DNA of 64,000 bases from a virus (lineage: Duplodnaviria; Heunggongvirae; Uroviricota; Caudoviricetes), in the IMG/VR virus record IMGVR_UViG_2703718819_000006. The stretch is one strand, 5' to 3'. This document shows, one piece after another, positions 44,902 through 45,185 of the stretch. The notes under the pieces were generated by a model, which had not been told where the DNA came from, did not search any database, and worked only from the letters and a program-made list of their open reading frames with translations. The translations under genes and the position numbers were made by a program. How positions within the stretch are numbered: the first letter of the stretch is position 1; the number at the start of each line of letters is the position of its first letter.

Positions 44902-45185
44902 GTGGCTCACCTGGTAGGTAGTTACTTACTTATCGCAATGAGCGGATGATAGCGACTGGTGGCAGTTTTTGGAAGTGGAAACGGAAGGGAGTTGTTCTGG
45001 TGGTGTCTTTTAAAAGACCTGCTTCCGTATATATTTAATAAGTTACTTATTATTTATATATATACAGAAGCAGGCATAACTTGTCGTCTTAGACGCCCAG
45101 AAGCTCTACACTTTGAGCCTGTTAAATTGATTAAAAACTTATGTGTAAAATAGAACGCATTAGTCAGTAGCAAAGAGATGCAATA

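What the first reader, a model, noticed from the sequence alone, without database searches (positions are those of the whole stretch)
45004..45073. Nested palindromes in the divergent intergenic region between the helicase-side operon and the GIY-YIG gene
A perfect 14-bp palindrome GTCTTTTAAAAGAC (45004-45017) is followed by a 16-17-bp inverted repeat (CCTGCTTCCGTATATAT / ATATATATACAGAAGCAGG) that encloses a copy of the ATAAGT...ACTTAT motif in a TA-rich loop. This is a candidate bidirectional regulatory site, lytic origin or endonuclease target.
Basis: seen in the sequence. Interest (0 to 1): 0.4.

Follow-up and report, generated by a model that had tools for sequence, protein, structure and literature searches.

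The report
Conserved terminator hairpin of SSU5-like phage-plasmids
The palindromes are one of three copies of a conserved 57-base hairpin that every SSU5-like phage-plasmid carries between gene modules; it most likely stops transcription of the always-on partition and defence genes from running into the phage replication genes, and is not a replication origin or a nuclease target.

Summary
The window is an SSU5/pHCM2-like phage-plasmid, 99% identical to Escherichia phage CMS-2020a. The large inverted repeat is real (45018-45074) and far beyond chance. The 14-bp palindrome (45005-45018, reader off by one) is at chance level and specific to the E. coli lineage.

The hairpin lies upstream of the helicase operon in every relative examined down to 59% protein identity. 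Paralogous copies sit before the terminase genes and after a Dam methylase gene. About 5% of complete E. coli genomes carry it, with a median of three copies, nearly all on plasmids and never annotated.

On the strand of the flanking genes, stem mismatches are mostly G·U (44) rather than C·A (8). Six stem pairs show double changes. A U-run follows the stem at this site in all lineages. More distant relatives have an ordinary small terminator at the same spot.

Best reading: an intrinsic terminator/insulator downstream of the partition/cargo genes, upstream of the replication-operon promoter.

The GIY-YIG gene is a PD-T4-3/CMoRE-type defence nuclease, one of at least 16 alternative cargoes, so the hairpin is not its target. 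The plasmid origin lies 30 kb away.

Unexplained: strong sequence conservation and the flanking TCTGG/CCAGA boxes.

The parts
45018..45074 (-). Core 57-nt hairpin. Arms are 45018-45034 and 45058-45074. The minus strand is the sense strand: CCUGCUUCUGUAUAUAUA...UAUAUACGGAAGCAGG.
   Evidence: Minus-strand RNA fold -28.1 kcal/mol, z -7.6, with an 18-bp stem containing one G·U; plus strand -22.8 kcal/mol with a C·A mismatch. Conserved in about 800 plasmids. Covariation.
45037..45051 (.). Apical palindrome AATAAGT-T-ACTTATT. It forms the 7-bp upper stem of the hairpin.
   Evidence: The TAAGTnACTTA core is kept at sites A and B in most lineages and is looser at site C.
45005..45017 (-). U-run directly 3' of the stem on the sense strand (UCUUUUAAAAGAC).
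   Evidence: A U-run follows the stem at this site in all lineages: mean 5.1 U in the first 8 nt over 34 unique sequences. The palindrome itself is chance-level.
44996..45000 (-). Downstream outer box (CCAGA on the sense strand).
   Evidence: CCAGA lies within 45 nt 3' of the hairpin in 42 of 49 unique flanks, against a 6.7% background. It pairs with the upstream box in the fold of the 121-nt stretch.
45097..45101 (-). Upstream outer box (UCUGG on the sense strand).
   Evidence: TCTGG lies within 45 nt 5' of the hairpin in 33 of 46 unique flanks, including 9 of 17 non-homologous cargo flanks, against a 5.8% background. The reversed control gives 0.
44946..44974 (-). Putative sigma-70 promoter of the replication operon: -35 TTCCAA at 44969-44974, 17-nt spacer, -10 TATCAT at 44946-44951. 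It lies 43 nt downstream of the hairpin.
   Evidence: Read from the sequence. Positionally conserved: TATGAT in Klebsiella types and TTGATT/TTGCTT-17-TATAAA in distant relatives. Below the threshold of the promoter scan, so this is inferred.
44161..44901 (-). First gene of the replication operon (246 aa, phrog_2500, function unknown), followed by the DnaB-like helicase (42777-44117) and a primase-like gene (41517-42767).
45186..45953 (+). Cargo gene: GIY-YIG nuclease of the PD-T4-3/CMoRE family, an anti-phage type IV restriction enzyme.
   Evidence: Pfam PF22945. PADLOC PD-T4-3, E 1.3e-23, full length. PDB 9U7U/9U75, E 2e-15. Function from PMC12923530. Present in 26 of the 73 relatives that could be scored.
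45966..46004 (.). Ordinary bidirectional terminator between the convergent GIY-YIG gene and the 119-aa gene.
   Evidence: ATGCATTGGCGC-AATGTAC-GCGCCAATGCAT followed by AATTTTT.
46006..47033 (-). Partition operon: ParA (46365-47033) and a 119-aa partner (46006-46365). In cargo-free relatives its stop codon lies 10-30 nt from the hairpin.
   Evidence: The 119-aa gene and its neighbouring cargo gene are expressed in the lysogen of the relative Cyrano (PMC9928086).

Best explanation
The repeat is one copy (site A) of a conserved hairpin cassette of about 57 nt, or about 100 nt with its outer boxes. SSU5-like phage-plasmids carry this cassette at three module junctions.

It most likely works as RNA on the minus strand of the window. 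Transcripts coming from the partition operon and its cargo genes fold into a very stable hairpin with a G+C-rich base, followed directly by UCUUUU. RNA polymerase then terminates about 43 nt before the promoter of the helicase-primase operon.

This would insulate the phage replication genes from genes that are transcribed in the plasmid (lysogenic) state.

What is shown:
- the anatomy and the conservation
- strand-specific pairing and compensatory changes
- the conserved U-run
- an ordinary terminator at the same position in distant relatives

What is inferred: termination itself and its role as an insulator.
For: 1. Identity of the replicon.
2. Homology to about 800 plasmids includes the hairpin and ends exactly at its right edge. 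Y. pestis pMT1 matches only the hairpin.
3. There are three copies per genome, each between co-directional genes: before the helicase operon, before the small-terminase-position and large terminase genes, and 20 nt after the Dam methylase stop. All 66 IMG/VR hits fall at these three sites.
4. In the orientation of the flanking genes, the lower 17 stem pairs of 56 unique sequences give 851 Watson-Crick, 44 G·U, 8 C·A and 49 other non-pairs, nearly all at the three topmost positions. On 16 stem pairs, the sense strand has 94.0% of cells paired against 89.5% for the antisense strand. Six pairs show changes on both sides, a count reached by 0 of 500 shuffles.
5. Specific compensatory changes: C-G to U·G to U-A at pair 5, and G-C to C-G, U-A to A-U and A-U to U-A in the Raoultella relative.
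6. The U-run directly after the stem is kept at site A even where the following sequence differs.
7. Minus-strand RNA folds at -28.1 kcal/mol, z -7.6.
8. In SSU5, Cyrano and pEcFELIX526.1, a co-directional gene ends 20-25 nt before the hairpin.
9. Relatives at 48-49% identity have a small canonical terminator (GGGAGCA...TGCTCCC plus a U-run) at the same place, upstream of the conserved promoter.
10. In the LF82 lysogen, the 119-aa gene and the neighbouring cargo gene are transcribed 9- and 6-fold above the prophage background (PMC9928086).
Against: - No transcript 3' ends are available, so termination is not demonstrated.
- The hairpin is atypical for an intrinsic terminator: an 18-bp stem plus a 7-bp stem with an internal loop. 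The consensus terminator scan did not call it.
- Site B has only about 3 U in the 8 nt after the stem, and a separate canonical terminator sits just before the small-terminase-position gene.
- Two of four site-C sequences have C·A rather than G·U on the sense strand.
- The G·U excess rests on few independent events.
- G·T pairs would also be tolerated in a single-stranded DNA hairpin of the same strand.
- In this window the neighbouring gene (GIY-YIG) is divergent, and the partition operon already has its own terminator at 45966-46004. Here the hairpin can only be a second barrier.
- A plain terminator does not explain why the stem sequence is nearly invariant across three paralogous sites and several genera, nor the TCTGG/CCAGA boxes.
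Confidence: 0.55

Rival explanations
1. The element is a sequence-specific recognition module, not just a passive terminator. A phage-plasmid or host factor would recognise the invariant stem or the TCTGG/CCAGA boxes. Candidates are an antiterminator, or RNase III acting on the longer helix that can form only in read-through transcripts, as at lambda tI/sib. This factor would open or process all three module junctions together during the switch to lytic growth. This reading can coexist with termination.
For: - The stem base CCUGCUUC/GAAGCAGG is almost invariant at all three sites, including in relatives whose neighbouring protein is 59-65% identical. Neighbouring non-coding DNA is only about 75% identical.
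- The outer boxes are far above background, even in non-homologous cargo flanks.
- CCCAGAC is not a genome-wide motif: 5 of its 10 occurrences in PhiR41_1 lie within about 100 nt of hairpins B and C.
- The downstream box lies beyond the U-run, so the extended helix needs read-through.
- The 121-nt stretches fold to -38 to -47 kcal/mol with the boxes paired.
- Site B is a nearly continuous helix of about 40 bp without a U-run.
Against: - No candidate factor was identified.
- 8 of 17 cargo flank groups at site A lack the upstream box.
- Covariation in the outer helix is anecdotal.
- No processing data exist.
- No Rfam family matches.
Confidence: 0.2
2. The element is a DNA-level site: a cruciform or protein-binding palindrome. 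Possible roles are partition (centromere of the adjacent ParA system), packaging, DNA topology (gyrase), or recombination that exchanges cargo, as with the PeSL cassettes of T4-like phages.
For: - It is a near-perfect 57-bp palindrome with an AT-rich centre; the DNA fold gives -15.6 kcal/mol.
- It lies right after the partition operon, and no repeat array is seen upstream of parA.
- Site B lies just upstream of the terminase genes.
- Site A borders a slot with at least 16 alternative cargoes, and BLAST homology breaks at the hairpin edge.
- Some relatives have the loop inverted relative to the flanks.
- The three copies are fairly evenly spaced on the 108-kb circle.
Against: - The strand asymmetry (44 G·U against 8 C·A) and the one-sided U-run are not expected for a double-stranded DNA site.
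- pMT1 has a different partition system and keeps only site B.
- Cargo is bounded by a hairpin on one side only.
- Three cos- or pac-like sites in one genome would be hard to reconcile with packaging of a 108-kb chromosome.
- Within-genome A-B identity is no higher than between genomes (0.890 against 0.888), so frequent exchange between copies is not seen.
Confidence: 0.15
3. The element is the lytic replication origin next to the helicase-primase operon.
For: It is adjacent to the replication operon, has an AT-rich centre, and the family's lytic origin is unknown.
Against: - There are three copies per genome, two of them far from replication genes.
- No iterons are present, and no DnaA box lies within 44.7-45.4 kb.
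- Cumulative GC skew shows no turn here.
- The clear origin architecture lies at 12.6-14.7 kb: a Rep3 initiator, about 20 iterons, DnaA boxes and an AT-rich stretch.
- Distant relatives replace the hairpin with a small terminator.
Confidence: 0.05
4. The element is the cleavage or homing target of the neighbouring GIY-YIG nuclease.
For: It is close to the gene, and homology with many relatives ends at the hairpin edge.
Against: - The protein matches PD-T4-3/CMoRE over its full length. That enzyme cuts DNA containing 5hmC or glucosyl-5hmC (PMC12923530).
- The gene is present in 26 of the 73 relatives that could be scored, while the hairpin is present in all close relatives examined and at two other loci.
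- The same slot holds at least 16 unrelated cargoes.
Confidence: 0.02

Closest known systems
Rho-independent (intrinsic) transcription terminators
   Same: A stem with a G+C-rich base is followed at once by a U-run on the transcribed strand. It sits downstream of co-directional genes and upstream of the next promoter. Pairing is kept by compensatory changes.
   Different: It is much longer than usual (18 + 7 bp, AT-rich upper half). Its primary sequence is nearly invariant across three paralogous sites and several genera. It is flanked by conserved TCTGG/CCAGA boxes. The site-B copy lacks a good U-run.
PeSL cassettes of T4-like phages: conserved terminator plus early-promoter motifs that mediate modular shuffling (PMC2839356, PMC4122927)
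   Same: Both are conserved intergenic motifs of about 100 bp, repeated within a phage genome, containing a terminator stem-loop and lying next to hypervariable accessory genes.
   Different: PeSLs number about 50 per genome, carry a strong sigma-70 promoter as part of the motif, and flank cargo on both sides. Here there are three copies, no promoter is shared by the copies, cargo is bounded on one side only, and no exchange between copies was detected.
Lambda tI terminator / sib RNase III site
   Same: A terminator hairpin whose helix can be extended by sequence lying beyond the termination point, so the longer double-stranded structure exists only in read-through transcripts.
   Different: RNase III cleavage and any regulatory consequence are untested here. 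The element occurs at three junctions rather than one.
Bacterial interspersed palindromes
   Same: Repeated imperfect palindromes in transcribed intergenic regions, which can act as terminators or mRNA stabilisers.
   Different: This element is confined to one phage-plasmid family at three fixed syntenic positions: 630 of 632 E. coli occurrences are on plasmids. There is no sign of transposition or target duplications.

Membership tests
Intrinsic terminator | Stable stem-loop with a G+C-rich base in the nascent RNA | tested here: met
   Minus-strand RNA folds at -28.1 kcal/mol, z -7.6. The stem base is CCUGCUUC/GAAGCAGG.
Intrinsic terminator | U-run directly after the stem | tested here: met
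   In the window the sequence is UCUUUUAA. At site A the mean is 5.1 U in 8 nt over 34 unique sequences. Site B has only 3.1 and site C 3.75.
Intrinsic terminator | Usual size: stem up to about 20 pairs, loop of 3-8 nt | tested here: not met
   The consensus scan found no terminator here. The structure is an 18-bp stem, an internal loop and a 7-bp stem.
Intrinsic terminator | Lies at the 3' end of a co-directional transcription unit | tested here: met
   Met in SSU5, Cyrano, pEcFELIX526.1 and the cargo-free relatives. In this window the adjacent gene is divergent, so only read-through past 45966-46004 would reach the hairpin.
Intrinsic terminator | Transcripts end there | not testable with these tools
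   No 3'-end data are available. The Y. pestis small RNAs reported on pMT1 lie elsewhere.
PeSL-type terminator/promoter cassette | Conserved motif of about 100 bp repeated in the genome | tested here: met
   Three copies, each with outer boxes, against about 50 in T4-like phages.
PeSL-type terminator/promoter cassette | A strong sigma-70 promoter is part of the motif | tested here: inconclusive
   A putative promoter lies 43 nt downstream at site A only (8 of 12 matches to consensus). The scan found none.
PeSL-type terminator/promoter cassette | Copies flank the variable genes and recombine with each other | tested here: not met
   Cargo has a hairpin on one side only. No excess within-genome similarity was found.
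Replication origin | Initiator-binding repeats, DnaA boxes, single locus | tested here: not met
   No iterons or DnaA boxes are present. There are three copies. The real iteron origin lies at 12.6-14.7 kb.
Replication origin | Strand-composition switch | tested here: not met
   Cumulative GC skew is monotonic through 45 kb. Skew here mostly follows gene orientation, so this test is weak.
GIY-YIG homing-endonuclease target | The site co-varies with presence of the nuclease gene, and the nuclease is of a homing type | tested here: not met
   The nuclease belongs to the PD-T4-3/CMoRE family. It is present in 26 of the 73 relatives that could be scored, while the hairpin is in all close relatives examined.
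Plasmid partition centromere | Repeat array next to the par operon, specific to that par system | tested here: inconclusive
   The hairpin is adjacent to the par operon, and no array lies upstream of parA. But copies also occur at two distant loci and in pMT1, which has another par system.
Lambda tI/sib-type read-through RNase III site | The helix is extended by sequence beyond the termination point | tested here: met
   The outer boxes pair in folds of the 121-nt stretches and are enriched.
Lambda tI/sib-type read-through RNase III site | RNase III cleavage with a regulatory effect | not testable with these tools
   No data.
Host interspersed palindromes / miniature transposable elements | Dispersed in host chromosomes at many non-syntenic sites | tested here: not met
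   630 of 632 places are on plasmids and 2 on one chromosome. All IMG/VR hits fall at three syntenic sites.

The most novel reading that the evidence does not exclude
The roughly 100-nt unit (invariant hairpin plus TCTGG/CCAGA boxes) could be a dedicated control element of SSU5-like phage-plasmids. It would be read by a still unidentified factor, such as an antiterminator, a processing nuclease or another binding protein. By acting on three identical gates, the factor would switch all three module junctions (metabolism/methylase, virion genes, replication genes) together between the plasmid state and lytic growth.
Probability: 0.15. Interest if true: 0.6.

Novelty: new variant of a known kind. 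Interest (0 to 1): 0.35.

Why it matters
SSU5-like phage-plasmids are common in clinical Enterobacteriaceae. Here they appear in about 5% of complete E. coli genomes and about 800 plasmid records. They carry resistance and defence genes.

How they keep lytic genes silent while partition and cargo genes are expressed has not been worked out. No paper found here describes this element.

A conserved, unannotated hairpin at exactly the junctions between these gene sets gives a concrete and easily testable handle on that question. It also marks the fixed edge of a slot where defence genes are exchanged.

If it is only a strong terminator, the result is useful mainly for annotation and for engineering these replicons.

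Tried and rejected
- **Other copies in the window.** None were found for the ATAAGT-N-ACTTAT palindrome or the 14-bp palindrome.
- **Promoter/terminator scan.** It found nothing at the site.
- **Rfam.** Only sub-threshold chance hits to microRNA hairpins.
- **Origin tests.** GC skew and DnaA boxes gave no support.
- **Centromere repeats upstream of parA.** None were obvious.
- **Concerted evolution between copies A and B.** Within-genome identity was 0.890 against 0.888 after permutation, so it is not supported.
- **A second hairpin on the far side of the cargo, as PeSL-like insertion would predict.** Absent.
- **Host-chromosome copies, as for a miniature transposable element.** Absent.
- **Literature.** Papers on SSU5, pHCM2 and phage-plasmids mention no palindrome, terminator or origin here. 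One preprint could not be read.
- **Y. pestis small-RNA catalogue.** The two small RNAs on pMT1 lie near ymt and insertion-sequence elements, not at hairpin B.
- **Integron attC reading.** Rejected because the outer boxes are in the order GTT...AAC, not ...AAC...GTT..., and do not fit the core-site consensus (from the sequence and from my own knowledge of attC sites).

Full report
**What the window is.** The 2.5 kb around the finding is 99.4% identical to Escherichia phage CMS-2020a and 98.6% to PhiR41_1. It is about 82% identical to Salmonella phage SSU5 over the left 1.08 kb. The window is therefore an SSU5/pHCM2-like phage-plasmid.

The local gene order is as follows:
- On the minus strand: a primase-like gene, a DnaB-like helicase (42777-44117) and a 246-aa gene of unknown function (44161-44901).
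- The intergenic region that holds the finding.
- On the plus strand: a GIY-YIG gene (45186-45953).
- On the minus strand again: a 119-aa gene and ParA (46006-47033).

**The observation.**
- GTCTTTTAAAAGAC is at 45005-45018.
- The large inverted repeat has arms at 45018-45034 and 45058-45074, 16 of 17 complementary.
- The inner palindrome AATAAGT-T-ACTTATT is at 45037-45051.

Perfect 14-bp palindromes occur 6 times in the window, against 4.5 +/- 2.1 in simulations, so the first palindrome is not remarkable. Stems of 16 bp with at most one mismatch occur at 4 loci, against 0.13 expected. The window holds no second full copy of the ATAAGT...ACTTAT palindrome.

**Conservation and copy number.** A 341-bp query across the region matches 799 plasmid records from Klebsiella, Escherichia, Enterobacter, Yersinia, Salmonella and others. 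In most, the match stops at query position 215-216, which is window 45074-45075, the right edge of the hairpin. Yersinia pestis pMT1 matches only the hairpin itself, at 91.5% identity.

In pMT1 and in PhiR41_1 that copy lies between an 88-aa gene and the gene in the small-terminase position, which has no Pfam match, just upstream of the large terminase.

A profile search of the whole PhiR41_1 genome finds three copies:
- Site A, 75112-75176, orthologous to the window copy.
- Site B, 45575-45639, before the terminase genes.
- Site C, 13432-13492, with the stem starting 20 nt after the stop of a Dam methylase gene.

The window holds only site A. In complete E. coli genomes, 259 of 5426 carry the element. 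Of 632 places, 630 are on plasmids. The median is three per genome, and no annotated feature overlaps any listed match. All 66 exact-pattern hits in IMG/VR fall at sites A, B or C.

**Strand and structure.** I oriented every copy by the strand of its flanking genes. Over the lower 17 stem pairs of 56 unique sequences there are 851 Watson-Crick pairs, 44 G·U, 8 C·A and 49 other non-pairs, nearly all at the three topmost positions.

With the counting tool on 16 stem pairs, the sense orientation has 94.0% of cells paired and the antisense orientation 89.5%. Six pairs show changes on both sides, a count reached by 0 of 500 shuffles. Examples of compensatory change:
- Pair 5 goes C-G to U·G to U-A.
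- Pair 9 alternates between C-G and U-A through U·G.
- A Raoultella relative, whose neighbouring protein is 59% identical, has G-C to C-G, U-A to A-U and A-U to U-A at pairs 10-12.

At site A the stem is always followed at once by a U-run: UCUUUUAAAAGAC in E. coli types, UCUUUUUCUAUGCC in Klebsiella types and UCUUUUACGACC in others. The sequence after the run differs.

The minus-strand RNA folds to -28.1 kcal/mol (z -7.6) with an unbroken 18-bp stem. The plus strand gives -22.8 kcal/mol, has a C·A mismatch and has no U-run.

**Position.** In SSU5, Cyrano and pEcFELIX526.1, a co-directional gene ends 20-25 nt before the hairpin. In cargo-free relatives the 119-aa partition gene ends 10-30 nt before it.

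About 43 nt after the hairpin lies a positionally conserved promoter-like site, TTCCAA-17-TATCAT. The 246-aa gene, the helicase and the primase-like gene follow.

Relatives at 48-49% protein identity lack the big hairpin. At the same place, upstream of the same promoter (TTGATT/TTGCTT-17-TATAAA), they have a small canonical terminator: GGGAGCA...TGCTCCC plus a U-run. In the LF82 lysogen of Cyrano, the 119-aa gene and the adjacent cargo gene are transcribed 9- and 6-fold above the prophage background (PMC9928086).

Together these observations point to an RNA hairpin that ends transcription of the partition/cargo unit before the replication operon. In the window itself the adjacent gene is divergent, and the partition operon has its own bidirectional terminator at 45966-46004. 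Here the hairpin would be a second barrier.

*Origin.* There are no iterons or DnaA boxes in 44.7-45.4 kb. Cumulative GC skew does not turn. There are three copies. A textbook origin lies at 12.6-14.7 kb: a Rep3-family initiator (13152-14207) flanked by about 20 iterons, with DnaA boxes and an AT-rich stretch.

*Endonuclease target.* The GIY-YIG protein matches the PD-T4-3 defence protein over its full length (E 1.3e-23). It also matches the solved CMoRE structures 9U7U/9U75 (E 2e-15). That enzyme is a type IV restriction nuclease for DNA containing 5hmC or glucosyl-5hmC (PMC12923530).

The gene is present in 26 of the 73 relatives that could be scored. The slot between the 119-aa gene and the hairpin ranges from 10-30 nt to about 2 kb. 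It holds at least 16 unrelated cargoes, including DUF2971 proteins and a KAP NTPase. The hairpin is independent of the nuclease.

**What a plain terminator does not explain.**
- The stem base CCUGCUUC/GAAGCAGG is almost invariant at all three sites, including in relatives at 59-65% protein identity. Adjacent non-coding DNA is only about 75% identical.
- TCTGG lies within 45 nt upstream in 33 of 46 unique flanks, including 9 of 17 non-homologous cargo flanks. CCAGA lies within 45 nt downstream in 42 of 49. The background is about 6%, and the reversed control gives 0.
- CCCAGAC is not a genome-wide motif: 5 of its 10 occurrences in PhiR41_1 lie next to hairpins B and C.
- The boxes can pair and extend the helix; the 121-nt stretches fold to -38 to -47 kcal/mol. 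The downstream box lies beyond the U-run, so this longer helix needs read-through. That resembles the lambda tI/sib arrangement, which I recall from memory and have not tested.
- Site B has a poor U-run and is a nearly continuous helix of about 40 bp. A separate canonical terminator sits just before the small-terminase-position gene.

I found no factor that would read these features. Within-genome similarity of copies A and B is no higher than between genomes, so exchange between copies does not explain the conservation.

**Comparison with known systems.** The element works like an intrinsic terminator. It meets the stem, U-run and position criteria at site A, but its size is atypical.

Conceptually it is closest to the PeSL cassettes of T4-like phages (PMC2839356, PMC4122927). 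Those are conserved terminator-containing motifs of about 100 bp next to hypervariable genes. This element differs in several ways: it lacks a shared promoter, has three copies rather than about fifty, bounds cargo on one side only and shows no sign of exchange between copies. It is not a host interspersed repeat and matches no Rfam family.

**Verdict.** The element is real, conserved and unannotated. It is most likely a strong terminator/insulator at module junctions of SSU5-like phage-plasmids (confidence about 0.55). A sequence-specific layer is possible but untested. The origin and nuclease-target readings are not supported. Interest is moderate to low.

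Noticed in passing
window 45075-46005, and the equivalent slot in loci L073-L158 and L163-L164: The stretch between the 119-aa partition gene and the hairpin is a cargo hotspot. It ranges from 10-30 nt (empty) to about 2 kb and holds at least 16 unrelated cargoes. These include a PD-T4-3/CMoRE-like nuclease (in this window), DUF2971 proteins and a KAP NTPase. Several look like anti-phage defence genes.
   Followed up: partly
window 4503, 18316, 31996, 44137, 47069; L004 about 45690-45720: A palindrome AAACAAnTTGTTT is enriched: 13 matches with up to 2 mismatches, against 3.1 expected. Most copies lie in AT-rich spots, including between the 246-aa gene and the helicase and just upstream of parA. 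Two half-copies lie between hairpin B and the small-terminase-position gene in PhiR41_1. It is a candidate operator of an unknown regulator.
   Followed up: no
L004 about 45716-45745 (PhiR41_1); L003 about 3583-3612 (pMT1): A canonical terminator (AGAGCGC-ATGGAC-GCGCTCT followed by GTGTGTTTT) sits immediately before the ribosome-binding site of the small-terminase-position gene. It is kept in pMT1 with a changed stem and loop. This suggests late genes are controlled by antitermination or attenuation.
   Followed up: no
window 12600-14700: This is the plasmid replication origin: a Rep3-family initiator gene (13152-14207) flanked by arrays of about 20 iterons (core ATCCACTATAGAGAG) at 12609-13109 and 14206-14690. 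It also has DnaA boxes (a perfect one at 12869) and an AT-rich stretch at 12715-12828.
   Followed up: partly
[not shown]
   Followed up: partly
PhiR41_1 13.4, 45.6 and 75.1 kb (L004, L005): The three hairpin copies are fairly evenly spaced on the 108-kb circle, with gaps of 32, 29.5 and 46 kb. For three random points, a smallest gap this large has a probability of about 0.03. This is a post hoc calculation; it may only reflect module sizes.
   Followed up: no
window 34122-34154 and 36162-36233: Two other long hairpins lie far above chance expectation. The second lies directly downstream of tRNA-Ser (36239-36325, minus strand), the first of four tRNA genes in the 36.2-37.2 kb region (Ser, then Thr, Tyr and Asn at 36972-37218).
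   Followed up: no
L160 3787-4041; L161 3787-4023: Distant relatives (Morganella and others, 48-49% identity) carry a small Hfq-like gene between the 242-aa gene and the helicase. Upstream of the operon they have an ordinary small terminator instead of the large hairpin.
   Followed up: no
window 44921-44933 and 45038-45050: The 5' untranslated region of the 246-aa gene contains GTTACTTACTTAT (sense GAUAAGUAAGUAAC). This shares a 9-mer with the hairpin apex and is kept in the close relatives (the Enterobacteriaceae-type sequences). It could be chance, a shared binding motif or an RNA-RNA contact.
   Followed up: no
window 47313-48150: A toxin-antitoxin pair lies upstream of parA on the opposite strand. 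Relatives annotate the two genes as a DUF1778 antitoxin and a GNAT/KacT-type acetyltransferase toxin.
   Followed up: no
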